The position numbers were made by a program, and so were the translations under genes. 64,000 nucleotides of DNA from Candidatus Sericytochromatia bacterium (GTDB taxonomy: Bacteria; Cyanobacteriota; Sericytochromatia; UBA7694; JACMQJ01): assembly GCA_046328015.1 (NCBI GenBank), contig JAXLXH010000001.1, positions 3,173,135 to 3,237,134 of the forward strand. Direction: 5' to 3'. How positions within the stretch are numbered: position 1 is the first letter of the stretch; every line of letters begins with the position of its first letter. The notes under the pieces were generated by a model. It did no database searches. It was not told the DNA's origin and saw nothing but the letters and a program-made list of their open reading frames with translations. Of the stretch, positions 3,885 to 49,972 are shown piece after piece.

Positions 3885-4075
3885 TAGTTTATAGTATCTT
3901 AGGATTAAATAATTTTATAATCCTAAACCTTTACTAAGTAAAACTTAGTATTAATTTTCAAACTACTTTTATCAAGTTAAGAACAGGTAAATTAGTATTA
4001 TACTATTAGATTGATTTTTATCAAATAAGATAATACTTATACTATTGTAATGAAGTTGAAATTAATTTATTAATT

Positions 4076-4119
4076 TTGAACTAGAAACTTAGACTAATTA
4101 GTCTAAGTTTCTAGTTCAA
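4076..4119. repeat. perfect 44-bp palindrome (20-bp arms, AATT centre) in divergent intergenic region
   Basis: ttgaactagaaacttagact aatt agtctaagtttctagttcaa read directly; followed by an A-run. Confidence 0.8.
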
Positions 4120-4140
4120 AAAAAATTCTTTTTATCTTAA

Positions 4141-4230
4141 CTCACCCCAACCCCTCTCTAAATCATTAGAGAGGGGTATCTTAGCTTTCTCCCCTTCTCT
4201 TTTAGCAAAGAGAAGGGGAAGGGGGATGAG
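4141..4230. repeat. nested palindromic repeat, family A copy 1 (REP-like)
   Basis: ctcaccccaacccctctctaaatcattagagagggg plus second hairpin ctccccttctcttttagcaaagagaaggggaag; GC-rich island in AT-rich DNA; related copy at 7263. Confidence 0.7.
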
Positions 4231-7225: not shown

Positions 7226-7262
7226 TTCTAATACCCATTATAAAATAAAATTTTTTGTCAAA

Positions 7263-7300
7263 CTCACCCCAACCCCTCTCTAAACTTTAGAGAGGGGCTT
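7263..7300. repeat. palindromic repeat family A copy 2 (possible proS terminator hairpin)
   Basis: ctcaccccaacccctctctaaactttagagagggg, near-identical to 4141-4175; 38 bp downstream of proS stop. Confidence 0.65.
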
Positions 7301-7379
7301 TCTAATAAGTACTAAGGGGTCTTTTATAGCTAATCTCATATTTTTAGAATACAAATTTATAATTAGCTATACTTAAAAT

Positions 7380-7455
7380 TATTATAAAAACACACTTTGT
7401 CCTTCCGTAGTAGTATACGGAATCTAGTGTGTTTTTCTTATTTTAAAGCTATAAA
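7380..7455 (-). repeat. palindromic repeat family C copy 1 (bidirectional terminator-like hairpin between convergent genes)
   Basis: Reverse complement matches 15871-15945 and 52651-52720 (tttaaaat.agaaaaacacactagattccgta..ctactacggaagga..aagtgtgttttt); lies between proS (+) and permease (-). Confidence 0.6.
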
Positions 7456-7521: not shown

Positions 7522-8856
7522 TTACTCATCTGTTTTTAAAAAATAATATAAAATAAAACCAATTAAAATAGTTCCAAATCCAGTTAGTGCTACTTTAGGT
7601 TCTTCGAAAATTGAATAAAAAATCATCCATAAAGATAATACTACAAAAATAATAGGTGTTAAGGGATAACCAAAAGTTTTATAAGTTCTTTCTAATTGAG
7701 GTGCTTTTATTCTCATCAAGATAACACCAAAAATACCAAGTCCTGCAAAAATAGAAATAGTAAAGCCAATATATTTTAGAAGGGTATCAAAAGCAGAAGA
7801 AAAAAACATTATAATAGATATTACCATTTGAAAATAAATAGCGTTGATAGGGATTCCATTTTTATTTTTTTTAGTAAAAAAGCTAAGTTTTTTAAAATCT
7901 TGCCCAACGGCTTCATACATTCTAGAGCCTGAAATAACCATAGCTCCAACTGCTGAAATTAAGCCAAAAGCTATTAATAAAGAAATAAAATTAGATCCTA
8001 TTTCTCCAAAAAGTGTTTTACCTGCTACTGCGGCAATTTCTTCTACTCCATCTAAAGTTTTATATGGAAGCATATATAAATAAACAAAATTAAGTCCCAT
8101 ATATAAAAGTGTTACTATAGCTGTGCCTAAAAAAAGTGAAATAGGAATAGATTTATTTGGTTCTTTCATTTCACCTGCAATATAACCTACAGCCTCCCAC
8201 CCACTATAAGCATAAGAAACATAAATAAGTGCTACAGCAAAAGCTGGCGAAAAAGCATAATTTAATTCATTACCACTAATTGGATAACTATTAAAACTAC
8301 CACTAAATATTCCGGCTATAATAAAAGTCATAATTAGAATAATTTTTCCTATTGTAAATAAATCTTGAAATTTAGCTCCATCTTCTGCTTTTAAAGTATG
8401 TATAAAAGAAGTAATAATTATTAAAAATAAACCTGCTACTGTTTTATTTATATCAAAAACTGTACTAAGATAACTTCCAAAAGCCATAGCTGATGAAGCT
8501 ATAGCAGCAGCAAAGCCTACCATTAAAGAAATCCAAGCACAACAAAAACCTAAAGCTTTATTATATACTTGTGTAATAATATTATATTCTCCTCCATTTT
8601 TAGGAAAAATAGTTACAAGTTCTGCATAAGATAAAGCTCCACATAAAGCAAAAAGACCTCCTAAAAGCCAAGAAAACATTATCATTAAAGGAGAATCTAT
8701 TGGTTTAATCATAAAACCTGTCGTAGTAAAAATACCAGTGCCAATCATAGTTGAAATAACTAAAAATGTACCAGTAGAAATACTTATTTTTCTCTCTTTA
8801 AGTTCTAAATTATTATTATTACCTAATTGAGAATTTATAAAATTATTTTCTTGCAT
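7522..8856 (-). CDS. APC-family amino acid permease
   Basis: About 12 predicted TM helices; N-terminal GTGIFTTTGFM-type signature; 444 aa. Confidence 0.8.
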   Translation of the reverse strand: MQENNFINSQLGNNNNLELKERKISISTGTFLVISTMIGTGIFTTTGFMIKPIDSPLMIMFSWLLGGLFALCGALSYAELVTIFPKNGGEYNIITQVYNKALGFCCAWISLMVGFAAAIASSAMAFGSYLSTVFDINKTVAGLFLIIITSFIHTLKAEDGAKFQDLFTIGKIILIMTFIIAGIFSGSFNSYPISGNELNYAFSPAFAVALIYVSYAYSGWEAVGYIAGEMKEPNKSIPISLFLGTAIVTLLYMGLNFVYLYMLPYKTLDGVEEIAAVAGKTLFGEIGSNFISLLIAFGLISAVGAMVISGSRMYEAVGQDFKKLSFFTKKNKNGIPINAIYFQMVISIIMFFSSAFDTLLKYIGFTISIFAGLGIFGVILMRIKAPQLERTYKTFGYPLTPIIFVVLSLWMIFYSIFEEPKVALTGFGTILIGFILYYFLKTDE

Positions 8857-14247: not shown

Positions 14248-15828
14248 ATGTATTTAACTAGAGGTCAAAGAATAAAGTTAGTAGATTATACAAAATCTAC
14301 TAACTTTATTATAAAAATAAAACTTCAAGGAAATAATAAAGAAGAATATGATATAAGCTGTTTTGGTTTAGATTCAGAAGAAAAGTGTTCAGATGATAAA
14401 TATATGGTATTTTATAATCAGAAAAAAACTCCATGTAACAGTATAATTATTAAAGAAGAATATTTTGATAATGAATTAAGTTTTGAAATAAATATTAATA
14501 AATTACCTGAAAAAATACAAAAAATATCTTTTACTGCAACTGTTGATGGCATTGGAGTAATGTCTGATTTAAAAGAAGGTAGCATATCTTTAATAGAAAA
14601 TTTTGAAAATAAATTTACATATAAATTTACAGGTAATGATTTTAAAAACGAAAAATCATTAATGCTAGGAGAGATTTATTTTAAAGATGAATGGAAATTT
14701 TATGCAAAAGGTTTTGGTTTTAATGGTGGATTAAGTTCTTTACTAGAATACTTTGGTATAGAAGAAGAACAAGAAATAACTAGTAATATAGAAATAATAA
14801 ATTTAAACAGTATCGTAGAAGAAGAGCCTCCTTTACCTAAAAAAAATTTAGGAGAATTTTTCAAAAATATTTTATTAACTCCTTTTAAATATGTTGAAAA
14901 AAAAATAGATGAAAAAAAAGAATTACAAGAAAGACAAAATTTAGAAGAATCTATAATTCAAAAAAAACTTAAATTTAAACAAATTCTTATAGATTATTTA
15001 TCAGATGGAGTTTTAACAAATACAGAAATGAATAATCTAGAAGTATTTTGTATTGAAAATAATATTAATATTGATGAATGCTTATATTCATCTAAGTATG
15101 AAGTTGAATCTTTTTTGAGATTACTTTTAGCTAATATTGTATCTGATTTTATTGTAACTCAAGAAGAAGAAAATACAATAAAGAGTGTTTGTTCTTTTTT
15201 GAAACCATCAATTCAAATAATTGAAGAAATTGAATCGACAATATATAGAGTTAAAGAACTCTCTAAAATAAGAAAAGGAGAAGTTTATCCAATAGATAAC
15301 CCTAAAATAATAACTAAATTAAGTGAGTTAGTTTGGTATATAGAATATAATATAAAAATATTAAAAATAACAAAGAAAGACTTAATACATTATAAAGGTG
15401 ATTTATTTGTTACTAGTGATAGATTATTATTTAAATCTCAAGATTATCCATTAGAAATATCCTTAAAAAATATTATTGATTTAGAATATAGTGGTTTGGA
15501 TTTATATATAACTGGTAATACGAATAAGTCTACTTGTCAATTTAAATTATATGAAGGTGAAAAATTACTAGCTTATATAGAACAAGCTTTAAATAAATTC
15601 CATAGAAAATTAGATTTTTCTAATTCAAATAAAAAAACAAGAACTATTCCTCAAACAGTAAGGCAAGAAGTTTGGTTAAGAGATCAAGGACAATGTGTTG
15701 AATGTTTAGCTACAGAATATTTAGAATATGATCATGTTATTCCATTTTCAAAAGGTGGTTCTAATTCAACTAATAATATTCAATTATTATGTAGAAAATG
15801 TAATTTAAAAAAAAGTGATCGTATTTAA
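14248..15828 (+). CDS. multidomain protein: N-terminal TerD domain, helical linker, bacterial PH-like domain, C-terminal HNH endonuclease
   Basis: TerD-like LTRGQRIKL...DISCFGLD...VFYNQ...GEIYFKDEWKFYAKGFGFNGGLSSL; HNH motif CVECLATEYLEYDHVIPFSKGGSNSTNNIQLLCRKCNLKKSD. Confidence 0.8.
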   Translation: MYLTRGQRIKLVDYTKSTNFIIKIKLQGNNKEEYDISCFGLDSEEKCSDDKYMVFYNQKKTPCNSIIIKEEYFDNELSFEININKLPEKIQKISFTATVDGIGVMSDLKEGSISLIENFENKFTYKFTGNDFKNEKSLMLGEIYFKDEWKFYAKGFGFNGGLSSLLEYFGIEEEQEITSNIEIINLNSIVEEEPPLPKKNLGEFFKNILLTPFKYVEKKIDEKKELQERQNLEESIIQKKLKFKQILIDYLSDGVLTNTEMNNLEVFCIENNINIDECLYSSKYEVESFLRLLLANIVSDFIVTQEEENTIKSVCSFLKPSIQIIEEIESTIYRVKELSKIRKGEVYPIDNPKIITKLSELVWYIEYNIKILKITKKDLIHYKGDLFVTSDRLLFKSQDYPLEISLKNIIDLEYSGLDLYITGNTNKSTCQFKLYEGEKLLAYIEQALNKFHRKLDFSNSNKKTRTIPQTVRQEVWLRDQGQCVECLATEYLEYDHVIPFSKGGSNSTNNIQLLCRKCNLKKSDRI

Positions 15829-15870: not shown

Positions 15871-15945
15871 TAAAAGTTTAAAATGAGAAAAACACACTAG
15901 ATTCCGTATTCTACTACGGAAGGACGAAGTGTGTTTTTATAATAA
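15871..15945 (+). repeat. palindromic repeat family C copy 2 (terminator-like)
   Basis: taaaagtttaaaatgagaaaaacacactagattccgtattctactacggaaggacgaagtgtgttttt, ~45 bp after the TerD-HNH stop. Confidence 0.65.
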
Positions 15946-40448: not shown

Positions 40449-41189
40449 TTACTCCATCATAATTAAATTATTATGATTATATTTAGGAGTACCTTTTTCT
40501 ATAACCATTCCAAAATGATTTAATTTCTCATTGGTATCAGTATCATGCCATCTATCTAAAAAGTCTTTAGTTGGGATATAAGTATAGTAGCCTAAGCTAG
40601 ATGGATCCATAAAATAAAATCTTTTATCATCATAACCAATAGCTATAGAATAATGTCCATCTTCCCAATCTTTAGAATAATCTGTAGGCTTTTCTGACCA
40701 AGCTTGCAATAAAACTAATACAGGTTTTTTGTTATCAATTAGTTTTTTTAGGTCTTCTATTTTCATATCTTTATAGATTTTAACACTATAACCATTTTCT
40801 TCTGAGAATTTTTTTATATTTGCATAAGCTGTGCCTTCATTTGGATCTGATTTTAAAGATTTAGCTAATTCACCTTCCATGTATTCATCACCATAATACA
40901 TCATAATAGATTGCAAAGAGCCTACTCCACAAGTATAGTCTGTAGATTGTCTCGCTAAAGGTAAAAACATAAAATTAGCTGGTAAATCTTTTACGCTTAA
41001 TTTTGGAGGTTTATTAGTATTTTTTGCTAAGAATTTTTTTCTTTGTGATATGTTAAAATTTTTTATACTTTTATTAGATTGTATGTTGGTAGTATTATTA
41101 ACAGAAATATCAGTTTCGTTTTGCTTATTACATGATAAAACAGTTATAAAAAGACTAGATAAAATAATAGAGGATATTTTTTTTAACAT
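40449..41189 (-). CDS. lipoprotein with papain-like (C39-like) peptidase domain, tentative
   Basis: Lipobox VLSC; candidate catalytic Cys in DYTCGVGSLQSIMMYYG and His in GHYSIAIGYDD. Confidence 0.5.
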   Translation of the reverse strand: MLKKISSIILSSLFITVLSCNKQNETDISVNNTTNIQSNKSIKNFNISQRKKFLAKNTNKPPKLSVKDLPANFMFLPLARQSTDYTCGVGSLQSIMMYYGDEYMEGELAKSLKSDPNEGTAYANIKKFSEENGYSVKIYKDMKIEDLKKLIDNKKPVLVLLQAWSEKPTDYSKDWEDGHYSIAIGYDDKRFYFMDPSSLGYYTYIPTKDFLDRWHDTDTNEKLNHFGMVIEKGTPKYNHNNLIMME

Positions 41190-41342
41190 GATTTTTTCTC
41201 TACAAAAATTTTATATAAATATTTTATCATTTTTATTATTTAGATAAAATACCTTAAATACTATAAATATATATTTATAAAAATACCTCAAATATACTCA
41301 AAAAAATTGTTTTACATTTTTTCAGTCAGTGAGTCTATATAT

Positions 41343-41370
41343 GAAACATTGGGTTGCAACCCAATGTTTC
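41343..41370. repeat. perfect 28-bp palindrome
   Basis: gaaacattgggttgcaacccaatgtttc in a 500-bp divergent intergenic region. Confidence 0.75.
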
Positions 41371-41425
41371 AGGGTAATATGATTTTGAAAAAATGAAAAC
41401 TATAAAATATTAACTATAGTTTATT

Positions 41426-41518
41426 CTTATTAGAGAATACCTAAGAACTATACTCTGAGGTTTCAGGGGATACGGGGGCAGAGCCTCCACTACCTTCCTC
41501 ATACGGAATTGGAGGTCT
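41426..41518 (+). repeat. repeat family B copy 1 (candidate small RNA or MITE-like element)
   Basis: Core tagagaatacctaagaactatactctgaggtttcaggggatacggggg shared with 48677 and reverse complement of 45812-45858. Confidence 0.6.
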
Positions 41519-41692
41519 TAAATTCATTTTTTTAATTGTCTTAAATTATAACTTTAATAATATAACAAAAAATTTACCAAATTTTTACGCAAGTATAATC
41601 TTTTTTTAACTATAACTAATTATTAATTATTGTATAATATTAAAATAGTTAATAATGCTTAGTTTTTATATAAAGCGTAGGGAGTTAATAAA

Positions 41693-42958
41693 ATGGTGAA
41701 CTTGAAAAAATTGAAAACAATTTCTTCATCTCTTTTAGTTGCAGCTTTTGTTGTAGGTTGCTCAAATAAGTTAGATGATACTGCCTTAGATGTTCAAGCT
41801 GTAGATAATCAATTATCAGCATCTTCTGCTGATGATGAAAGCTTACCTATTTTTGCAAGCTTCAACAATGCTTACAAAACTACTGTAGCAGAAAATGATC
41901 CTATTTCAAGAAAAGATCCAAGAAACTCTGATAAATATTTTGTAAAATTAATTAATTCTGCTAAAAAGACCTTAGATGGAGCTTTTTATGATATTCAAGA
42001 TCCAGATGTTACACAAGCTTTTATTAATGCACACAAAAGAGGTGTAAAAGTAAGATTAGTAACAGATGATGAAAATTTAAAAGATAAACAAGATCCTACT
42101 AAAGATAGACAATCTATTATTGATTTGAAAAAAGCTGGAATTGAAGTAAAAGATGATAAAAGAGAAAAACTTATGCACAATAAGTTTATGGTAGTTGATA
42201 ATACCTATGTTTGGACAGGTTCTATGAATTTAACTACATCTTCTATGTATCACCATAATAACAATTCTATCAGAATAAAATCTCCTGAGCTTGCTCAAAA
42301 TTTTAATGCTGAATTTAGCAGATTTTGGGATCAAAACCTTTATGGAACCAACCCACATACTATTCCTAACCAAGTAGTTAATGTAGCTGGTTCTTCAATA
42401 AGAACATTTTTCTCTCCTGGTGGTGGAACAAATTTAGCTATAGTAGAAGAACTTAAAAAAGCTAAAAAATCTATAAAATTTATGGCTTTCTCTATGACAC
42501 ATAAAGATATTCTTGCTGTTATGACAGAGAAAAAACAAGCTGGTTTAAATGTAGAAGGTATATTTGATGAGTGTTTAATACCTCAATATTCTATCTATTT
42601 TGCACTCAAAAAAGCTAATATATTTACAAGAGGTGATGGAAACCAAGCTTTAATGCATCATAAAGTTATGATTATTGATGATGAAACAGTAATTACAGGT
42701 TCTTTCAACTTCTCAAAAAGTGCTGATGAAGGTAATAATGAAAACTGTTTATTTATTAAATCACCAACTCTTGCTAAGATTTATAATAGCGAATATTCAA
42801 GAATTAAATATGCTGCTTTAAATAACAAAAATATTCCTCCATATGATCATCCTGCTTGTAGTAAACATGATTCAAAAGGTTCTCAACCTGCTCCAGCTAA
42901 AAATTCAGCTGTAGTTGAAACAGAAAAAGCATTATGGGATAAATTTACAAAAGAATAA
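41693..42958 (+). CDS. phospholipase D-family lipoprotein with two HKD motifs
   Basis: Lipobox VVGCS; HNKFMVVD...GSMNLT and HHKVMIID...GSFNFS. Confidence 0.85.
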   Translation: MVNLKKLKTISSSLLVAAFVVGCSNKLDDTALDVQAVDNQLSASSADDESLPIFASFNNAYKTTVAENDPISRKDPRNSDKYFVKLINSAKKTLDGAFYDIQDPDVTQAFINAHKRGVKVRLVTDDENLKDKQDPTKDRQSIIDLKKAGIEVKDDKREKLMHNKFMVVDNTYVWTGSMNLTTSSMYHHNNNSIRIKSPELAQNFNAEFSRFWDQNLYGTNPHTIPNQVVNVAGSSIRTFFSPGGGTNLAIVEELKKAKKSIKFMAFSMTHKDILAVMTEKKQAGLNVEGIFDECLIPQYSIYFALKKANIFTRGDGNQALMHHKVMIIDDETVITGSFNFSKSADEGNNENCLFIKSPTLAKIYNSEYSRIKYAALNNKNIPPYDHPACSKHDSKGSQPAPAKNSAVVETEKALWDKFTKE

Positions 42959-42971
42959 TCTTATAAAAATA

Positions 42972-44458
42972 AAAAACCCTCTTTATATTAAAGCTTACCA
43001 TTACCCATAAGTATAATTATTAAAAGATTCAAGTATTTCAGTAGCTTCTAGGATAGTTTTAAATTTAATAAAGCCCCTCCAAAGAACTTTTACACCTGGA
43101 AAACCATCACCCTTTCTTGCTAAAAAACCTCCAAGTCGTGCAATCCAGACAATAACCTCTTTTAATTTTGGTATTTCTTTAGGTAGGTTAGGTGTTTTAT
43201 TTACTAATATATATATTAAATTCCATTCTTTTTTTGAAAAAAAGGCTTCACAACTTAGCTCGGGTTCTTTTCTAACAATATAAGTCATGTTTAATAACTT
43301 ACAAGAAACCACAGAATACATAGCTAATACTTTTTGTATCTTATCTGATGAATCTAATTGAAGCTCTTCTATGTGGCAACCACTTTTTAATACATAATGA
43401 TATCTCTCTATTAACCATCTATAACTGTACCATCTAACATATTTTATAGCATCTTCAAGTGAGTTTATGTCTAGTGTTGTCAAAAGAACCCATCTTATAG
43501 GCTCTTTGCTCTCTCCCGATTTTTCTTCTTCTACCAATATTACATTTAAAGATACACTATGTATATTTTTTTTATGATTTTTAGGTTCTTTTATCTCAAA
43601 TTTATCATATTTAATGTTTAATTTAGCTTTCCTTGAAGACACTCCTTTCTTCCTAGATATATCAACTTCTAAATTTCCTTTAACCTCAAGATTATCTAAC
43701 CCTTTAAATAATTTCTTATCTTCATGATTTATAAGTCTATCTTGTGCTGCTCTTACAAGTAAATGACTATTCCTCTTCCTATCAACTAAAAACAAATCAT
43801 AAATATCTGATTCACGGTCTCCTATCGTAACTATAACCTGTTCTTCATTAAAAAACTTCTTGTCTATTGATATTAATGATTCTATCCACCTATAACTTTC
43901 CTTATCTTCTATATTCTTTTTACTGCGTTCTGATACTAACTCTTTACTTCTTGTCCATATTTTCTGCTCTAATATTCCTACTGGAACTCCTTCGCTTGTC
44001 AATGATAGTGTTGTATGAACCATTAAACCTGTGCAATTAGAATTTCCTATTCTACCCATTTCCTTCTTTGATTTATGCGTTGTAAAATTTAATTCTGTTG
44101 TATCTTGAACATTTAATACTACTTTCTCATTTAAAAGACTGTTTATTGTCTTTTCATAATGGCTATTCATTAATTTCTCTCTTGTAACTTTTTTATTATC
44201 ATAAAATCTATAACAAGCTTTTGTTCCTGACCAATCTTCAAAACTATTAGGTATGCTTTTACCAACATTATTTTAAAAAAGAATTGAATATTATTCTACA
44301 TCTATTATTCAATCTCTTATCTCCAAAATTTATATTATCAAATTCGTTCATTATTTTATAGCTCTTTTTAATATTTTTAACTCTAACACATATTCTAAGT
44401 TATTTTCAACCCCCTTTATAGATGTGGGTAATGGGTAGATATTAAAGAGGGTTTTTTT
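42972..44458 (-). mobile_element. IS4-like insertion sequence (~1.49 kb) with imperfect terminal inverted repeats
   Basis: Left end aaaaaccctctttatattaaagcttaccattaccca versus reverse complement of right end aaaaaccctctttaatatctacccattaccca; encloses the transposase gene. Confidence 0.7.
43001..44170 (-). CDS. IS4-family DDE transposase (main frame; N-terminal ~60 codons in another frame upstream to 44351)
   Basis: HTTLSLTSEGVPVGILEQKIWTR and IGDRESDIYDLF; upstream ORF MNEFDNINFGDKRLNNRCRIIFNSFLK ends at a T6A4 run (44271-44280) where the frame changes. Confidence 0.75.
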   Translation of the reverse strand: MNSHYEKTINSLLNEKVVLNVQDTTELNFTTHKSKKEMGRIGNSNCTGLMVHTTLSLTSEGVPVGILEQKIWTRSKELVSERSKKNIEDKESYRWIESLISIDKKFFNEEQVIVTIGDRESDIYDLFLVDRKRNSHLLVRAAQDRLINHEDKKLFKGLDNLEVKGNLEVDISRKKGVSSRKAKLNIKYDKFEIKEPKNHKKNIHSVSLNVILVEEEKSGESKEPIRWVLLTTLDINSLEDAIKYVRWYSYRWLIERYHYVLKSGCHIEELQLDSSDKIQKVLAMYSVVSCKLLNMTYIVRKEPELSCEAFFSKKEWNLIYILVNKTPNLPKEIPKLKEVIVWIARLGGFLARKGDGFPGVKVLWRGFIKFKTILEATEILESFNNYTYG

Positions 44459-44629
44459 ATTGAAATTTTTTGAGTTTAAAAATAATGTGAATGATATTTT
44501 ATTTAATAATAGTAATTACTTTAATTTAACTTTAAACTATTATTTATAACTATTACTAGCATCTAATTAGTTATAAAATTAAAATTTATTGTAAAATATT
44601 AATTAGATAGGTTAATAAGAGGTGCAAGA

Positions 44630-45220
44630 ATGAAAAAAATATTTTTAGGATCTTTAATAATATTATCTTTTTTTTGTTTTCAAATTGATCGTGCTTATTC
44701 AAAATCTTGTTTAAAAGGAGATTGTAATAATGGACAAGGAACTATAACCTATTTTGATGGGAGTAGATATATAGGTGAATTTAAAAATGAGCAGTATCAT
44801 GGGCAAGGAACTTTTACTTTTCATAATGGTATGAAATATATAGGTGATTGGATAAGTGGTAAAAAAAATGGTAAAGGAACTATAACTTACCCAGATGGAA
44901 GTAAATATGTTGGTAGTTTTAAAAATGATCTTTACCATGGAGAAGGAATTTTAACTTTAAATAATGGAACGCAATATATTTGTAATTGGGTTGATGGTAA
45001 AAAAAATGGTAAAGGAACTATTATTTATTATGATGGAAGTAAATATGTAGGTGATTTTAAGGAAGATCTTTATCATGGACAAGGAACTATGTTTTTTTCT
45101 GATGGGAGTAGATATATAGGTGAATGGAAGAATGGTAAATTTGATGGTGAAGGAACTTATACTTGGAATAATGGAAATACTTATACTGGAAAATTTAAAG
45201 CAGGAGAAAAAATAAATTAG
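44630..45220 (+). CDS. secreted MORN-repeat protein
   Basis: Signal peptide; ~7 tandem Y-x-G-x-[FW]-K-x-x-x-x-H-G-x-G-T repeats. Confidence 0.8.
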   Translation: MKKIFLGSLIILSFFCFQIDRAYSKSCLKGDCNNGQGTITYFDGSRYIGEFKNEQYHGQGTFTFHNGMKYIGDWISGKKNGKGTITYPDGSKYVGSFKNDLYHGEGILTLNNGTQYICNWVDGKKNGKGTIIYYDGSKYVGDFKEDLYHGQGTMFFSDGSRYIGEWKNGKFDGEGTYTWNNGNTYTGKFKAGEKIN

Positions 45221-45348
45221 AATTGTTAATCTTTAATAATAAAATCCTAATTTTATTTCCTTTATATTGACAAATAAAGGGATTACAGTTATAGTTAAAG
45301 ACGTGAAAAAATCTAGGTTAAATTTAGTTTATAATAGAGGTAGATATA

Positions 45349-45702
45349 GTGAGCCAACAATTATTAAGAGAACTTACTGGGGCACAATTAAAAAAAGATT
45401 TGCCAGCAATTAATGTAGGTGATACAGTTAAAGTTGCCGTTAAAATCGTAGAAGGCGGTAAAGAAAGAATTCAAAACTACGAAGGTGTTGTTATTGCAAA
45501 AAGAGGCAGTGGAATATCTGAATCTATGACAGTAAGAAAAGTATTTAAAGGTGTAGGAGTAGAAAGAATATTCCCTTTACATTCTCCAATGCTTGATTCT
45601 GTTAAAATAGTTAAACAAAGTATAGTAAGAAGATCTAAACTTTACTATTTAAGAGGACTTACAGAAAAAGCAACCAGATTAAAAGAAAGATCTACAAAAT
45701 AG
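45349..45702 (+). CDS. rplS: 50S ribosomal protein L19
   Basis: [30 protein letters not shown]...[13 protein letters not shown] start with AGAGG RBS. Confidence 0.9.
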
Positions 45703-45720
45703 TATTTAAGATTAACACTA

Positions 45721-45748
45721 AAAAGCTACCTTGAAGGTAGCTTTTTTA
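45721..45748 (+). terminator. rho-independent terminator of rplS
   Basis: aaaagctacc ttgaa ggtagctttttt hairpin plus T-run, 19 bp after the stop. Confidence 0.75.
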
Positions 45749-45768
45749 TTTATATAATAAATTTAAAA

Positions 45769-45860
45769 CCTCCTACGGGGTATCAACCCAGCAGGAAGAA
45801 GTGAGCACACTCTAAAACACCAGAGCAGAGCTATGAGGTATTCTCTAGTAAAAACTAAAA
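45769..45860 (-). repeat. repeat family B copy 3 (reverse orientation)
   Basis: Reverse complement tactagagaatacctcatagctctgctctggtgttttagagtgtgctcac matches the B core. Confidence 0.55.
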
Positions 45861-46412
45861 TCTTATGGAAGCTCTAAAACCTCTACCACTGTAGTAAGAA
45901 GATGCTCCATTATGATAAACAAAAACAGTATCAAATCTTCTATCAGCAAAAATTGCTCCACCTAATTTTCTAATTTTATCAGGTGTTTTTATCCAACTAG
46001 AGGTTTTGGTATCAAACTCGCCTAGTGTTTGTAAAAATTTATACTCTTCTTCTGTTAATAAATTAACATCCATTTCTTCTGCCATATTAATTACATTACT
46101 TTTAGGTTTATGTTCTTTTCTAGAATTTAAAGCTTCTTGATCATAACAAAGAGCTCTTCTTCCAGTAGGAGTTTCTGGTGAGCAATCATAAAAAATATAT
46201 TCATCTTTTTTTGAGTCATAATCAACAATATCAGGTTCTCCACCTGTTTTTTCCATTTCATAGAGAGACCATAATTTTTCATCATTATTATTTAATTTTT
46301 CTTCTATTTTAGACCATTCAAGTTTTTTATGTCTTTTTTTATTTTTTTCAAATCTATCTTTTAATGTATAAATTAATTCTTGTTTTTCTTCTATAGAAAG
46401 TGTTTTTTTCAT
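45855..46412 (-). CDS. DUF4256-like conserved hypothetical protein
   Basis: 185-aa ORF with family-like C-terminus; last gene of ArsR operon. Confidence 0.5.
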   Translation of the reverse strand: MKKTLSIEEKQELIYTLKDRFEKNKKRHKKLEWSKIEEKLNNNDEKLWSLYEMEKTGGEPDIVDYDSKKDEYIFYDCSPETPTGRRALCYDQEALNSRKEHKPKSNVINMAEEMDVNLLTEEEYKFLQTLGEFDTKTSSWIKTPDKIRKLGGAIFADRRFDTVFVYHNGASSYYSGRGFRASIRF

Positions 46413-46418
46413 AAACTA

Positions 46419-46883
46419 TTACCTAAACATATTCATAATATCTTGCAATTTATTGTGTGCCATATTTAAACCATGAGCAAAGGGGAGTTTTAAAATCTGA
46501 TTTCTAATATCAACAGATTTATAAATTACATGCATAGTTAATTTACTTTTATCATTAGAAATAGATTCAAATTCTAAAAATTCTAATTGAGCTTCAAAGG
46601 AAGTATTTTCCATTTCGAAGGTTCTAATAATTTTTTTATTTGGTATAAAATTATGTATTGTACCACTAAAATTATGTTTGTTTCCCATAGGATCAGTTGT
46701 TTCAAAATGATAGTAACCATGTTTTTTATTTTCTAATTTTATTACTTTAGTCCCCATCCATTGTTCAACAATTTGAGGCTCTATATAAGCCTTAAAAAGT
46801 AAATCTAATGGTAAATCAAATTCTCGGATAATAAATAACTCTTGCTTATTTTCTTCTGCTTTAATTTTTGTTTTTTGTTCCAT
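46419..46883 (-). CDS. SRPBCC-superfamily protein
   Basis: About 150 aa, typical partner of ArsR regulators; assignment by context and size. Confidence 0.5.
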   Translation of the reverse strand: MEQKTKIKAEENKQELFIIREFDLPLDLLFKAYIEPQIVEQWMGTKVIKLENKKHGYYHFETTDPMGNKHNFSGTIHNFIPNKKIIRTFEMENTSFEAQLEFLEFESISNDKSKLTMHVIYKSVDIRNQILKLPFAHGLNMAHNKLQDIMNMFR

Positions 46884-46896
46884 AATATTTTATTCT

Positions 46897-47211
46897 TTAT
46901 TTGTATAATTTCATTATATTTTCTAAGTTATTAAATCTTTCATCCCACATTTTACGAAATGGTTCTATAAAATCTGCAATTTCTTTCATTTTATTAGGAT
47001 TTAATTCATAATATATTTCTCTACCATTTTTTTCTTGTTTTATTAATTCACATTCTGTAAGTATATGCAAATGTTTTGAAACAGTTGGTCTTGCAGTTTC
47101 AAAATTTGCAGCAATAGCACCTGCTGTCATAGTCTGAGAAGCTAATAATATAAGTATAGCCCTTCTTGTGGGATCTGCTATTGCTTGAAAAACATCTCTT
47201 CTTAAATCCAT
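46897..47211 (-). CDS. ArsR/SmtB-family transcriptional regulator
   Basis: [48 protein letters not shown]. Confidence 0.85.
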
Positions 47212-47273
47212 ATGTAGACACTTAACTACAAATAATATGTAGGTATTTAACTACATAATTTAAAAGTTGTCAA
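47212..47273 (-). promoter_or_regulatory. putative ArsR operator/promoter: two tandem TGTAG-N9-CTACA palindromes
   Basis: atgtagacacttaactaca (47212-47230) and atgtaggtatttaactaca (47237-47255) abut the arsR start; TTGACA on minus strand at 47268-47273. Confidence 0.45.
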
Positions 47274-47375
47274 GCTTAAATAATTTTTTCATTTAGCTAT
47301 TAATTAATAGTTTTTTATTATATTATTTAAAAAACATAAAACTGAAAGCATTAAAGATATTTTTAGGTAAAAATA

Positions 47376-48182
47376 ATGGAACGTTTTAAAGAAATTTTTA
47401 AAGTAAAAAGCCCAGTAATAGGAATGATTCATGTAGATGCTTTACCTGCAACTCCAAGATATAAAAATAATTTTTCTGAAATAATAGAAAAAGCCCTTAA
47501 AGAAGCTGAAATTTATAAAAAAGCAGGAATAGATGCTTTGGCTATAGAAAATATGCATGATATTCCTTATATGAAAACTAATATTGGACCAGAAATTACT
47601 TCTGCTATGACTGTTATAGGTTATCAAGTAAAAAAAACTTCTAATTTGGTATGTGGTATTCAAATTTTAGCAGGTGCCAATAAAGAAGCTTTTGCGGTAG
47701 CTAAAGCTTCAAATTTAGATTTTGTAAGAGCTGAAGGATTTGTTTTTTCTCATGTGGCAGATGAAGGTATTATGGAATCTTGTGCTGGAGAATTATTAAG
47801 ATACAGAAAATCTATTGATGCAGATAATATTTTAGTTTTTACAGATATTAAGAAAAAACATAGTTCTCATGCTATAACATCCGATGTTGATATTTGTGAA
47901 ACAGCTAAAGCTGCTGAGTTTTTTCTTAGTGATGGTTTAATAATTACAGGAACTTCAACTGGTCATGAAGCTAGTACCAATGAAATAGAATCTGTAAAAA
48001 ACGCTGTAAAGTTACCTGTAATTGTTGGCTCTGGTGTTAATCTAAATAACTTAGAAAGCTATTTTAATATAAGTGATGCTATGATTGTGGGTTCTTATTT
48101 TAAAAAAAATAGCTATTGGGCTAATGATTTAGATTATGATAAAGTAGCTTCTTTTATGGAAAAAGTTAATAAACTTAGATAA
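47376..48182 (+). CDS. BtpA/SgcQ-family TIM-barrel protein
   Basis: N-terminal VIGMIHVDALPATPRY. Confidence 0.65.
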   Translation: MERFKEIFKVKSPVIGMIHVDALPATPRYKNNFSEIIEKALKEAEIYKKAGIDALAIENMHDIPYMKTNIGPEITSAMTVIGYQVKKTSNLVCGIQILAGANKEAFAVAKASNLDFVRAEGFVFSHVADEGIMESCAGELLRYRKSIDADNILVFTDIKKKHSSHAITSDVDICETAKAAEFFLSDGLIITGTSTGHEASTNEIESVKNAVKLPVIVGSGVNLNNLESYFNISDAMIVGSYFKKNSYWANDLDYDKVASFMEKVNKLR

Positions 48183-48183
48183 T

Positions 48184-48570
48184 TTATAAGCTTTCAATTA
48201 CTTTTTTTAGTTTATTTCTAACTTCTTCTGCAACTGGTAATAAAATTTCGTTATTTACAGATTGCATAGTAACAAAAGGATCTACAGCTGAAACTTCAAT
48301 AAATCCTTCTTCTTTTTCTTGTACAATTAAGTTGCAAGGAAGTAATAAGCCTATTTTATCTTCAGCTTGAATAGCTTTATAAGCAAAGGGAGGATTACAA
48401 GCACCTAAAATTTTATATTTAGGTAAATCTACATCAAGCTTTTTTTTCATAGTTTCTTTAACATCTATTTCAGTTAAAATTCCAAAACCTTCTTTTTTTA
48501 GTTCTTCAGTTACTTTTAAAATAGCATTCTCAAAAGAATCTGATATTTTTTTATTAAAATAATAAGTCAT
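48184..48570 (-). CDS. DUF302-domain protein
   Basis: ILGACNPPFAYKAIQAEDKIGLLLPCNLIV. Confidence 0.7.
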   Translation of the reverse strand: MTYYFNKKISDSFENAILKVTEELKKEGFGILTEIDVKETMKKKLDVDLPKYKILGACNPPFAYKAIQAEDKIGLLLPCNLIVQEKEEGFIEVSAVDPFVTMQSVNNEILLPVAEEVRNKLKKVIESL

Positions 48571-48676
48571 AAAAACCTCTTTATATACTATACGGTATAT
48601 AGTATATTATATAATAAAAAAAATAACAAGCTTATATAGCTAATTCAAATTTTTAGCTTACATTTAAGATTATATT

Positions 48677-48845
48677 TTTATTAGAGAATACCTCAGAGCT
48701 TTGCTCTGGGTTTTAAGAGGATACGGGGGTGTCTAAAAAGTGTGCGTTAATTATAACGCCCATACGAAAACACTGGCTTTAACCCTAGTCTTTCGTAAAA
48801 AAAAGACCTAAAAAAAGCCTTTTTGGACACACCCGTCTTAAATTA
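48677..48845 (+). repeat. repeat family B copy 2, extended structured form (candidate ncRNA)
   Basis: Core ttagagaatacctcagagctttgctctgggttttaagaggatacggggg; long-range pairing acgggggtgtc (48723-48733) with ggacacacccgt (48825-48836). Confidence 0.5.
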
Positions 48846-48904
48846 ATTTATATGCTAATAGCTATAAGATAAAAAATTTATGAAATATTAAAAAAATATT
48901 TATA

Positions 48905-49972
48905 TTATTGATTTCCGGTAAAAGAATTCCATAATCTTTGTAATTCAGCTTTTTCTTCTCTAGTTTTACATTTAGAAGGGTTATAAACAAGAACTTGATT
49001 GTTATAAGCTTGATTTAAACCGTCTTTTGAAACTCTAAAAATTGGAACAGAACTTCCTCCTATATTATTCGGTAAGGCTTGAATCCAAGGCATTTCAGAG
49101 TTACCACCTTGAGTATTAAAAACTGCTGTATGAGCAACTTCACCACCTTTAAAACATATTGCAATAGTCTTATTTCCTGCTCTTCTAATAAGATCATCTA
49201 AACTACTTGGCTTAGTATCTTGCCCAAGTGCATAATGATGACAATTTTTAACTTTAAGACAATGCTCTAATCCTTCTAATTTATACTGATCTGGTGAAAT
49301 ACCTAATTCCCCTTGAATAATTGATTCTTTACACTCATGTAAATCTTTAATGGTTATTTTAATATCATCTGATATGTTTTTTAAAAACTCTTCTGCTTTT
49401 TTCTTTTGCATAGTAGAAAAAGGTCTAAGACTCATTACGCCACTACTTGGATCTAATTTTTGATCAATATTATTATATATTTTATTTATAACACTTTCTG
49501 GAACTCTAAGATTTGTAGCCATTTTAGTAAGTTCTTTTTTTAATATAGGATCCATTTTTTTTTCTTCATTTGGCACTTCAGAAGAATTATTAGAAACCAC
49601 AACATTATTAGTTGAAGGTGATGGAGTACTATTTTCTCTAGGTGTACTAGGTGTAGGTGCTGATTGTGTAGTTTTTTTAGAACTACCTCTCATTGTATTT
49701 GCAACTGAACCTATTTCAGCTACATCTTCTGGATTACATTGAGAAGTTTCAAAAGAATTTAATTTTCTTCTTAATCCCTCAACATCAGTTTGAGGATTAA
49801 TTTTTTTTAGAGTATCAATTATAGAATTTTGAGTAAAACCTCTAGATTTAAAAAGTTCGTAACCTTTTTGGGTTTGAACTGCTTTTTCAAATGATGATGT
49901 AGAAACTGTAGTAGGATTTGTTTTGTTTGGGCTAGTAAAAGAAACTACACCTTGTGAAACACCAATACGCAT
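48905..49972 (-). CDS. Ser/Thr/Pro-rich hypothetical protein with Cys/His-containing C-terminal domain (effector/toxin-like, unassigned)
   Basis: Low-complexity middle STPRENSTPSPSTNN; C-terminal NCHHYALGQ...AHTAVF; 4-bp gap to upstream small gene; locally higher GC. Confidence 0.6.
   Translation of the reverse strand: MRIGVSQGVVSFTSPNKTNPTTVSTSSFEKAVQTQKGYELFKSRGFTQNSIIDTLKKINPQTDVEGLRRKLNSFETSQCNPEDVAEIGSVANTMRGSSKKTTQSAPTPSTPRENSTPSPSTNNVVVSNNSSEVPNEEKKMDPILKKELTKMATNLRVPESVINKIYNNIDQKLDPSSGVMSLRPFSTMQKKKAEEFLKNISDDIKITIKDLHECKESIIQGELGISPDQYKLEGLEHCLKVKNCHHYALGQDTKPSSLDDLIRRAGNKTIAICFKGGEVAHTAVFNTQGGNSEMPWIQALPNNIGGSSVPIFRVSKDGLNQAYNNQVLVYNPSKCKTREEKAELQRLWNSFTGNQ

What the first reader, a model, noticed from the sequence alone, without database searches (positions are those of the whole stretch)
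41426..41518. Repeat family B: conserved ~45-nt core in three intergenic copies, one with extended secondary structure
Core tagagaatacct.a.a.ct.t.ctctg.g.tttt.ag.g occurs at 41426 (+), 48677 (+) and 45812-45858 (-). All copies carry a local hairpin (for example cagagc-tttg-gctctg), and copy 2 extends ~160 nt with a closing long-range stem. Positions relative to genes are inconsistent, which fits a small RNA gene family or a MITE better than a simple terminator.
Basis: seen in the sequence. Interest (0 to 1): 0.45.

Follow-up and report, generated by a model that had tools for sequence, protein, structure and literature searches.

The report
Small dispersed structured intergenic repeat family
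Three copies (and probably at least one more elsewhere in the genome) of a roughly 90-160-base, GC-rich, hairpin-forming non-coding element lie between genes of a very AT-rich uncultured bacterium; the repeat is real and matches no described family, but it looks like an ordinary kind of thing, either a small mobile or REP-like repeat or a small-RNA gene family, and the data here cannot say which.

Summary
A 45-nt core, TAGAGAATACCT plus an imperfect hairpin, occurs exactly three times in the window: 41431(+), 48682(+) and 45847(-). About zero are expected by chance. Each unit is discrete. It has a sharp 5' end (TTAY|TAGAG), a variable GC-rich hairpin and a conserved 3' end, GT(C/T)TTAAATT. Copy 2 carries a ~92-nt insert closed by a 10/11-bp stem.

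Copies 1 and 3 are the 3rd and 4th most GC-rich 80-nt stretches of a 24%-GC window. Nothing in Rfam matches. Pattern scans of JGI metagenomes and IMG/VR, BLAST against plasmids and phages, and 27 kb from relatives gave no homologues.

A second strain carries copy 3 at the same site. It has 0 changes in the core and tail, and 6 in the 35 nt between; two of these keep terminator-stem pairs (G.U to G-C and the reverse). Two independent k=31 assemblies both break exactly 30 nt into copy 2. That implies at least one more copy outside the window.

There are no terminal inverted repeats, no convincing target duplication, no transposase partner, no conserved promoter and no compensatory double changes. 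The family shares modules with other intergenic repeats.

Best reading: a dispersed non-autonomous structured repeat, REP/MITE-like in the broad sense (0.45). Main rival: a small-RNA gene family (0.35). A simple terminator is excluded. Interest is low to moderate.

The parts
41431..41524 (+). Copy 1 (94 nt). Core is 41431-41477 and includes GGATACGGGGG at 41468-41478. The GC-rich 3' hairpin is CCTCCA (41484-41489) paired with TGGAGG (41510-41515). The tail GTCTTAAATT is 41515-41524. A second GTCTTAAATT lies at 41538-41547.
   Evidence: 80-nt GC 0.51
48682..48844 (+). Copy 2 (163 nt). Core is 48682-48728, with the perfect hairpin CAGAGC-TTT-GCTCTG at 48694-48708. The long-range stem pairs 48723-48733 with 48826-48836 and encloses a ~92-nt insert. 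The tail GTCTTAAATT is 48835-48844.
   Evidence: two assemblies end at 48707
45760..45847 (-). Copy 3 (88 nt). It starts 7 nt after the last base of the stop codon of the DUF4256 gene (45855-46412, -). Core is 45847-45808. The terminator-like stem-loop is 45798-45769. The tail GTTTTAAATT is 45769-45760. The bidirectional rplS terminator (45720-45746) follows.
   Evidence: orthologue in a second strain
48635..48681 (+). Upstream module 'U' in front of copy 2: TATAGCTAATTC..TTTTTAGCTTACA..TTTAAGATTAT.. The same module also precedes two copies of a different repeat (family A), at 7325-7378(+) and 52767-52722(-). Copy 1 keeps only a degenerate 12-mer, TATAGTTTATTC, at 41415-41426.
   Evidence: (28 nt, 89%, E 2e-5)

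Best explanation
Family B is a discrete, non-coding, dispersed repeat unit of about 88-95 nt (163 nt in copy 2, which carries an internal insert). It is present in at least four copies in this genome.

The unit has sharp ends: 5' TTAY|TAGAGAATACCT and 3' GT(C/T)TTAAATT. It carries an invariant 12-mer followed by an imperfect hairpin, then a fast-evolving GC-rich hairpin. It does not bring a promoter with it.

I read it as a non-autonomous repeat of the REP/BIME or MITE kind in the broad sense. On this reading it was spread as a unit into AT-rich intergenic sites, in either orientation, by a mechanism acting in trans that does not use terminal inverted repeats. That could be a hairpin-recognising single-strand enzyme or recombination between repeats. 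The unit now sits stably in place.

Where a neighbouring gene reads into it (copy 3, in the 3' UTR of the DUF4256 operon), its hairpins are part of the mRNA. There they would act as a 3'-end or stability structure.

Shown: the three copies, the unit boundaries, the modular conservation, the shared modules with other repeats, and occupancy of both testable loci in two strains. Inferred from assembly breaks: at least one extra copy. Inferred without direct evidence: mobility, its mechanism, and any RNA-level effect.
For: The ends are sharp. Similarity between copies starts 4-12 nt before TAGAG and ends at TTAAATT(NATT).

Two independent k=31 assemblies, from the same strain (L098) and a second strain (L096), both stop at window position 48707. 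That is exactly 30 nt after 48678, although no 31-mer of copy 2 recurs in the window. The same 'about k-1 nt into a repeat' behaviour appears at three other contig ends that abut repeat or insertion-like sequence. This implies a further copy elsewhere, with the repeat boundary at TTATTAGAG.

Orientation and gene context vary. Copy 3 is wedged between a native stop codon (homologues end at the same residue) and an existing bidirectional terminator.

The family is a mosaic. Module U is shared with family A. Copy 1 contains the family-A inner hairpin motif CCTTCC..ATACGGAAT. Copy 2 has a ~92-nt insert inside its hairpin.

No promoter is shared. Promoter-like sites in the region are no more frequent than in shuffles: 42 found against 52 expected.

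Copy 1's apical stem has three uncompensated G/C-to-A changes.

The genome is rich in mobile DNA, with an IS4-like element at 42971-44457 and several structural differences between strains.
Against: There are no terminal inverted repeats. The 3' ends of the three copies differ from each other and from the reverse complement of the 5' end.

Only a weak 5-nt direct repeat (TYTTA) flanks the unit, and it matches in two of three copies. This is not significant.

No transposase that could act on it is in the window. The IS4-like ends are unrelated, and none of 63 ORFs is a Y1/RAYT enzyme.

Copy 3, and the 5' part of copy 2, are present at identical sites in a strain 3.35% diverged, whereas other structural differences occur between the two strains. 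So there is no sign of recent movement.

Conservation is strongly non-uniform. GC content is twice the genome average. Copy 3 and its orthologue fold much better on the element strand, -30.3 and -27.3 kcal/mol (z -3.1, -2.6), than on the opposite strand, -17.7 and -14.4 (z -0.6, -0.3). All of this fits a functional RNA at least as well.
Confidence: 0.45

Rival explanations
1. A family of small regulatory RNA genes (paralogous sRNAs). Each unit would be a transcript starting a few bases before TAGAG, with an invariant 5' 12-mer and stem-loop as the functional part. It would end at the GC-rich hairpin plus the U-rich tail. Copy 3 would be a 3'-UTR-embedded member. The 5' GAAUACCU is complementary to the ribosome-binding-site-like AGGUAUUC, so it could pair with translation-initiation regions.
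For: The shape is that of an sRNA: a conserved 5' module, a variable GC-rich hairpin and a U-rich tail.

Copies 1 and 3 are the 3rd and 4th most GC-rich 80-nt stretches of the window, at 0.51 and 0.50 against a mean of 0.243 (sd 0.068). Only the tRNA and one coding stretch are higher.

Folding is strand-asymmetric in both orthologues of copy 3.

Between strains there are 0 changes in the core (~45 nt) and tail (19 nt), and 6 in the 35 nt between. Two changes in the terminator stem keep pairing: U.G to C-G, and C-G to U.G.

A -10-like hexamer lies 10-12 nt upstream of TAGAG in all three copies: TATAGT, TAAGAT, TAAGAT.

Copy 2 is laid out like a stand-alone gene, divergent from the DUF302 promoter.

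AGGTATT serves as the ribosome-binding site of two window genes, and AATACCT/AGGTATT is twice as frequent as expected: 33 against 15.9.
Against: The -10-like hexamer of copy 3 lies in native codons, and such hexamers are everywhere in 24%-GC DNA. No -35 element or wider promoter is shared.

RNAalifold finds 1 compensatory pair in 14, many broken pairs, and an unfavourable covariation term of +1.45.

Copy 1 has lost its apical stem.

The small middle hairpin of copy 3 is destroyed in the second strain.

The tail UCUUAAAUU is a poor U-tract, and the terminator scan does not call any of the three copies.

Half of the invariant 12-mer is buried in the stem.

No extended complementary target exists in the window.

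0 changes in 45 nt is not significant against the 4.5% rate at third codon positions (P about 0.13, my calculation).

There is no Rfam match.
Confidence: 0.35
2. Inert relics of local segmental duplication or gene conversion within a 7.4-kb stretch. On this reading they have no function and no mobility of their own.
For: All three copies lie within 7.4 kb of a 64-kb window; the chance of that for three random points is about 0.04 (my calculation). An IS element lies between copies 1 and 3. Copy 1 shows AT-biased decay.
Against: The units are short and discrete, with no similarity in their flanks. The assembly breaks point to a further copy outside the window. 50% GC has been kept in a 24%-GC genome, and the core is unchanged between strains.
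Confidence: 0.1
3. A cis-acting leader, attenuator or plain intrinsic terminator serving the adjacent gene.
For: Copy 3 sits directly after a stop codon and ends in a strong hairpin followed by UUUU. In copy 1 the hairpin GGGGGC/GCCUCC competes with CCUCCA/UGGAGG upstream of the PLD-like gene, which resembles an anti-terminator/terminator pair.
Against: Copy 1 is at no gene's 3' end, and the PLD-like gene has its own promoter-like sites downstream of it. Copy 2 points away from both neighbours. Copy 3 is followed 15 nt later by a canonical bidirectional terminator, so it is not needed for termination. No riboswitch or leader family matches.
Confidence: 0.07

Closest known systems
REP / BIME elements of enterobacteria and pseudomonads (with their RAYT transposases)
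   Same: Both are short, GC-rich, imperfect palindromes preceded by a conserved short single-stranded motif. Both are intergenic, often just after stop codons, and occur in either orientation. Both combine with other conserved motifs into mosaics. Neither has terminal inverted repeats or target duplications. REPs act as mRNA 3'-end stabilisers.
   Different: No RAYT gene was found in the window, and the rest of the genome could not be searched. The copy number is unknown. The unit is longer than a REP and has a conserved AT-rich 3' end. No REPIN-type inverted doublets were seen.
Bacterial MITEs such as Correia (Neisseria), ERIC, RUP and BOX
   Same: Similar size range (about 90-160 nt). Both are non-coding, dispersed, able to form hairpins, variable in internal content, and sometimes function as terminators or transcribed RNA.
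   Different: Those elements have terminal inverted repeats and defined target duplications (for example TA for Correia). Family B has neither, and its two ends are unrelated to each other.
IS200/IS605-derived miniature elements (PATEs)
   Same: Neither has inverted terminal repeats or a target duplication. Both have a hairpin near each end. Both have a short conserved oligonucleotide just outside the left end and at the right end (here TYTTA).
   Different: The left and right hairpins of family B are unrelated, and the right one differs between copies, so one TnpA could not recognise them. Orientation is mixed within 7 kb. No Y1 transposase is in the window.
Multi-copy sRNA families (e.g. cyanobacterial Yfr2-5, Vibrio Qrr1-5, E. 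coli Sib/QUAD repeats)
   Same: Several paralogous units of 60-160 nt with a conserved functional segment, variable remainder and a terminator hairpin. The QUAD repeats were first noticed as intergenic repeats, as here.
   Different: Those families keep their promoters (and, for Sib, an antisense toxin ORF). Family B has no shared promoter and no conserved small ORF on either strand, and there is no sequence or Rfam similarity to any of them.

Membership tests
Any Rfam 15 family | Covariance-model score at or near the gathering threshold | tested here: not met
   The gathering scan of the whole window finds only tRNA-Leu. E-value scans of 41000-49200, 41400-41560 and 45740-45880 give only noise far below gathering scores. 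ARAGORN finds only the tRNA.
Classical MITE | Terminal inverted repeats | tested here: not met
   The 5' end TAGAGAATACC is not matched by the reverse complement of any 3' end, and the 3' hairpin arms differ between copies.
Classical MITE | Target-site duplication flanking each copy | tested here: inconclusive
   A 5-nt TYTTA occurs on both sides: TCTTA/TCTTA in copy 1, TTTTA/TCTTA in copy 2, TTTTA/TTTTA in copy 3. Only one position varies and it agrees in 2 of 3 copies, so this cannot be told from family conservation.
Classical MITE | Related autonomous element with matching ends | tested here: not met
   The only IS in the window (IS4/Tn5-like, 42971-44457) has the unrelated inverted repeats AAAAAACCCTCTTT. 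The whole genome was not searchable.
Classical MITE / any mobile repeat | Presence/absence polymorphism between related genomes | tested here: not met
   Copy 3 (complete) and the 5' part of copy 2 are present at the same sites in a strain 3.35% diverged. Copy 1 could not be checked.
REP / RAYT system | Short imperfect palindrome with a conserved 5' oligonucleotide, intergenic, in both orientations | tested here: met
   TAGAG plus the AAUACC..GGUNUU hairpin is conserved in all copies. The copies lie on strands +, +, - and all are intergenic.
REP / RAYT system | Cognate Y1 (RAYT) transposase gene, and tens to hundreds of copies | not testable with these tools
   None of 63 window ORFs has a Y1_Tnp domain.
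IS200/IS605-derived miniature element | Similar subterminal hairpins at the left and right ends | tested here: not met
   The left hairpin (CAGAGC/GCTCTG type) is unrelated to the right hairpins, and the right hairpins differ between copies.
Trans-acting sRNA gene family | Own promoter at each copy | tested here: inconclusive
   TAnnnT hexamers lie 10-12 nt upstream of each copy, but no -35 element is shared. Copy 3's hexamer lies in native codons. Promoter-like sites are not enriched in the region.
Trans-acting sRNA gene family | Intrinsic terminator at the 3' end | tested here: inconclusive
   A GC-rich hairpin is present in all copies, but the tail is (U)CUUAAAUU. The scan calls none of them; only copy 3 has UUUU directly after the stem.
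Trans-acting sRNA gene family | Covariation-supported structure | tested here: inconclusive
   Only 3 paralogues and 1 orthologue are available. There is 1 compensatory pair in 14, and several pairs are broken. Two one-sided pair-preserving changes occur in copy 3's terminator stem; I calculate about 0.5 chance of that without selection.
Trans-acting sRNA gene family | A discrete transcript | not testable with these tools
   No expression data were available.
Intrinsic terminator (simple) | Located at the 3' end of a co-oriented gene | tested here: not met
   This is true only for copy 3. Copy 1 lies between divergent genes, and copy 2 is antisense to both neighbours.
Integron attC array | Same orientation, one per cassette, with RYYYAAC / GTTRRRY core sites | tested here: not met
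   Orientations are mixed and neither core site is at the ends.
Type I toxin-antitoxin repeat (Sib/Ldr-like) | Conserved small hydrophobic ORF overlapping the repeat | tested here: not met
   No start codon or open frame is shared by the three copies on either strand. This comes from reading the sequences.

The most novel reading that the evidence does not exclude
The units are genuine small RNAs of a deep-branching, non-photosynthetic relative of cyanobacteria (labelled 'Candidatus Sericytochromatia'). On this reading they form a multi-copy regulator family. The invariant 5' UAGAGAAUACCU would pair with AGGUAUUC-type ribosome-binding sites. The repeat boundaries coincide with transcript ends because the RNA-sized unit is what is duplicated.
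Probability: 0.3. Interest if true: 0.5.

Novelty: new member of a known kind. Interest (0 to 1): 0.3.

Why it matters
If it is a repeat element, it is a useful marker. It shows that this 24%-GC, hardly sampled lineage carries mosaic intergenic repeats of the REP/BIME type that break short-read assemblies, and such elements help define strain differences and genome plasticity. If it is an sRNA family, it would be the first regulatory RNA described for this lineage, for which no RNA biology is known. Either way the family is lineage-restricted and small, and it changes no general concept.

Tried and rejected
1. The genome-contig scan used TAGAGAATACCTN{8,14}CTCTG, which was too loose. This is the main limitation, because the rest of the 3.55-Mb genome could not be searched.

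2. Two stricter metagenome scans and one viral scan found nothing. Plasmid and phage BLAST found nothing.

3. About 27 kb from the nearest relatives (ProS 68-70% identical) held no copies.

4. I considered that copy 2 was inserted into a split U module. I rejected this: a contiguous alignment of U upstream of copy 2 explains the data more simply, and the downstream TAGCTATA is weak evidence.

5. I considered that the upstream leader TAAGAT.. is shared by copies 2 and 3. I rejected this: beyond -12 the similarity is not significant on its own, and in copy 3 it lies in native codons.

6. I considered that the second strain has a different leader at copy 1. I rejected this: the divergent sequence after 41362 matches nothing in the window and may be an unrelated insertion.

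7. A group II intron or retron link through the HNH protein at 14248-15828 was rejected; the protein is a TerD-HNH fusion.

8. A seed/target search in the window gave no extended complementarity near start codons.

9. Integron attC sites, type I toxin-antitoxin loci, riboswitches, ribozymes and tRNA-derived elements were all excluded on the anatomy or by Rfam and ARAGORN.

Full report
**Source and setting.** The window has about 24% GC. Its prolyl-tRNA synthetase is 100% identical to a protein of an NCBI metagenome-assembled genome labelled 'Candidatus Sericytochromatia bacterium', on a 3,555,234-bp contig. The next best ProS in 5.8 billion proteins is only 77% identical. The organism is therefore almost unsampled. 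Its own genome record could not be fetched. Only short Logan contigs of the same strain (SRR26348420/22) and of a second strain (SRR1027651) were reachable.

- TAGAGAATACCT (up to 1 mismatch) occurs at 41431(+), 48682(+) and 45847(-) only, against 0.51 expected.
- The 47-nt pattern common to copies 1 and 2 has 2 matches against 0.00 expected.
- A profile of the core finds exactly these three sites at E about 1e-12, and nothing else below E = 1.
- All three lie within 7.4 kb of the 64-kb window. I calculate P about 0.04 for that if positions were random.

**Anatomy.** Each unit has three parts.
- A 5' module of about 45 nt that is 77-90% identical between copies. It holds an invariant 12-mer, UAGAGAAUACCU, whose 3' half forms the base of an imperfect hairpin (AAUACC/GGUNUU). 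The apex is perfect in copy 2 (CAGAGC-UUU-GCUCUG), has one mismatch in copy 3, and has three uncompensated G/C-to-A changes in copy 1.
- A variable GC-rich region ending in a stem. Copy 1 has CCUCCA/UGGAGG or CCUUCC/GGAGG. Copy 3 has CUUCCUGC/GUAGGAGG around an inner GGGU/ACCC hairpin. Copy 2 has ACGGGGGUGUC/GACACACCCGU, 10 of 11 pairs, around a ~92-nt insert.
- A conserved 3' end, G-U-(C/U)-UUAAAUU-N-AUU.

Similarity between copies begins 4-12 nt before TAGAG and stops after the tail; flank comparisons beyond that are not better than shuffles. Copies 1 and 3 are the 3rd and 4th most GC-rich 80-nt stretches of the window (0.51 and 0.50; mean 0.243, sd 0.068). Only the tRNA and one coding stretch are higher.

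**Gene context.**
- Copy 1 lies between divergent genes, a C39-like peptidase (-) and a PLD-like lipoprotein (+). It is co-oriented with the latter and 168 nt upstream of its ATG; promoter-like sites lie between them.
- Copy 2 lies between two minus-strand genes and points away from both.
- Copy 3 starts 7 nt after the last base of the stop codon of a DUF4256 gene, on that gene's strand. It is followed 15 nt later by the canonical bidirectional terminator of the convergent rplS.

The C-terminus of DUF4256 is native, since homologues end at the same residue. So the unit starts after the stop codon, and the TAAGAT '-10-like' hexamer upstream of copy 3 is coding sequence. A simple terminator is excluded for the family.

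**Known families.** The Rfam gathering scan gives only tRNA-Leu. Permissive scans of the region and of the single copies give noise. ARAGORN finds only the tRNA.

**Homologues elsewhere.** My first collection scan (genome contigs) used too loose a pattern. It returned only chance hits and exhausted the cap. Two stricter scans of JGI metagenomes, one of IMG/VR, and BLAST against plasmids and phages found nothing. About 27 kb from the nearest relatives has no copy.

**A second strain.** A 97%-identical DUF4256 protein (P0121) led to Logan contig L094 (SRR1027651), which carries the orthologue of copy 3 at the same position.
- The contig differs from the window at 30 of 895 positions (3.35%). Third codon positions differ at about 4.5%.
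- Inside copy 3 there are no changes in the core or in the 19-nt tail, and six changes in the 35 nt between.
- By my calculation, 6 or more in 35 nt at 4.5% has P about 0.006, whereas 0 in 45 nt has P about 0.13. The middle is therefore unusually variable; the core is not demonstrably constrained.
- Two of the six changes lie in the 5' arm of the terminal stem and keep pairing (U.G to C-G; C-G to U.G). One is in a bulge. Three destroy a small middle hairpin.
- In both strains the element strand folds far better than its complement: -30.3 and -27.3 kcal/mol (z -3.1, -2.6) against -17.7 and -14.4 (z -0.6, -0.3).
- Contig L096 of the same strain covers module U and the first 26 nt of copy 2, with one substitution in its last 153 nt.

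**More copies exist.** L096 (second strain) and L098 (same strain, another sample) both end at window position 48707, inside the core of copy 2. No 31-mer of that region recurs in the window. Logan contigs come from a k=31 graph, in which a contig coming from unique sequence runs k-1 = 30 nt into an exact repeat.
- This behaviour is seen at three other contig ends that abut repeat or insertion-like sequence. Two flank an apparent insertion in the AHSA1 gene of the second strain. One joins a 72-nt repeat family seen elsewhere in the window.
- So at least one more locus shares an exact stretch of 30 nt or more with copy 2, starting at 48678 (TTATTAGAG...). That is the same boundary at which copies 1 and 2 begin to match.
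- This is an inference from assembly behaviour, not a direct observation.

**Mosaic relations.**
- A ~47-nt module 'U' (TATAGCTAATTC..TTTTAGCTTACA..) precedes copy 2. It also precedes two of three copies of a different repeat, family A. Family A is a long hairpin, AAAAACACAC..GTGTGTTTTT, at 7386-7436, 15888-15938 and 52668-52718; all three lie downstream of gene 3' ends and look like bidirectional terminators.
- Copy 1 retains only a degenerate TATAGTTTATTC of U. Its 3' half holds CCTTCC..ATACGGAAT, the inner hairpin motif of family A.
- This mixing of modules recalls BIME-type mosaics.

**Weighing the readings.**
- For a dispersed repeat element: sharp unit ends without a shared promoter, a further copy elsewhere, mixed orientation and context, mosaicism, an internal insert, uncompensated decay of copy 1, and a genome rich in mobile DNA.
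- Against a classical MITE: no terminal inverted repeats, no convincing target duplication, no partner transposase in the window, and occupancy of both testable loci in the second strain.
- For an sRNA family: the overall sRNA-like shape, the high GC, the strand asymmetry, the pattern of change between strains, and the stand-alone layout of copy 2.
- Against an sRNA family: no shared promoter, no covariation, a weak U-tract, and no target in the window.

I put the repeat-element reading (REP/MITE-like in the broad sense) at 0.45, the sRNA family at 0.35, inert duplication relics at 0.10, and a cis-regulatory or terminator role at 0.07.

**Novelty and interest.** The family is undescribed and lineage-restricted, but it belongs to a familiar class of features whichever reading is right. 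It is a new member of a known kind. Interest is about 0.3.

Noticed in passing
window 7386-7436 (+), 15888-15938 (-), 52668-52718 (-): Repeat family A is a long hairpin, AAAAACACAC..UUCCGUAGUAGNAUACGGAA..GUGUGUUUUU, with A- and T-runs on either side. Copies are 89-96% identical over 63-83 nt. All three lie downstream of gene 3' ends, two of them between convergent genes, so they look like repeated bidirectional terminators.
   Followed up: partly
window 7325-7378 (+), 48635-48681 (+), 52767-52722 (-): Module U (TATAGCTAATTC..TTTTAGCTTACAAATTTATAATTAGCTATA) is itself an inverted repeat, TATAGCTAAT/ATTAGCTATA. It sits directly upstream of, and co-oriented with, two family-A copies and family-B copy 2. 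It could be a shared promoter or operator, or another mosaic repeat module. TATAGCTA occurs 13 times against 6.9 expected, and 6 of those occurrences lie next to these elements.
   Followed up: partly
window 4139-4180 and 7261-7300: A third GC-rich hairpin repeat, ACTCACCCCAACCCCTCTCTAAA-N3-TTTAGAGAGGGG (95% identical over 38 nt). One copy lies just after the proS stop codon. There is no Rfam match.
   Followed up: partly
window 41342-41371; L095 1-60: A perfect 30-nt palindrome (ATGAAACATTGGGTTGCAACCCAATGTTTCAG region) lies 60 nt upstream of copy 1 and is unique in the window. In the second strain the sequence diverges completely from position 41362, in the right arm, into sequence not found in the window. 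This is probably an insertion.
   Followed up: partly
window 4074-4121: A perfect 48-nt palindrome (TTGAACTAGAAACTTAGACTAATTAGTCTAAGTTTCTAGTTCAA) lies in a 0.5-kb intergenic gap, immediately before the GC-rich hairpin repeat.
   Followed up: no
window 42971-44457: An IS4/Tn5-like insertion sequence with 15-bp inverted repeats (AAAAAACCCTCTTT..). Its transposase ORF is only 389 aa, apparently truncated or frameshifted at the N-terminus. The Logan contig is confined to the IS interior, which suggests the IS is multi-copy in the genome.
   Followed up: partly
L094 1-25 and L096 1-27, against window 46643-46652: In the second strain (SRR1027651) the AHSA1-like gene appears interrupted. Two contigs overlap by 10 nt of window sequence (a possible target duplication). 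Both continue into the same inverted end sequence, TTTTGTCGTGGAGTGAG, which is absent from the window.
   Followed up: partly
L097 1-44, against window 52581 onward; window 57141-57212, 60848-60919, 62191-62262: Past 52581 the second strain joins a copy of a 72-nt repeat (..TTTATTTCCAAATCATAGTTAATCACC..) instead of family-A copy 3. In the window this repeat occurs three times near a tyrosine integrase (62356-63204) and a 300-nt, 97% identical direct repeat (56874 / 60581). These may be attachment sites or ends of an integrative element.
   Followed up: partly
window 48905-49972 (-): This 355-aa protein next to copy 2 has no homologue at E below 1e-5 among 5.8 billion proteins and no Pfam domain. 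Most ORFs between 52.8 and 62 kb also lack any Pfam match.
   Followed up: partly
window 14248-15828 (+): An unusual fusion protein with an N-terminal TerD domain and a C-terminal HNH nuclease. The NCBIfam hits to IscB and Cas9 come from the HNH domain only.
   Followed up: partly
whole window: The heptamer AATACCT (reverse complement AGGTATT) is twice as frequent as expected: 33 against 15.9, with 0 of 100 shuffles reaching 33. AGGTATT serves as the ribosome-binding site for at least two genes (starts at 8856 and 34932). The invariant 5' GAAUACCU of family B is complementary to it.
   Followed up: partly
window 41538-41547: A second exact GTCTTAAATT lies 23 nt downstream of the tail of copy 1. 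There are only three exact occurrences in the window, and the other two are the tails of copies 1 and 2. It may be a local duplication of the element's end or an unoccupied target-like site.
   Followed up: no
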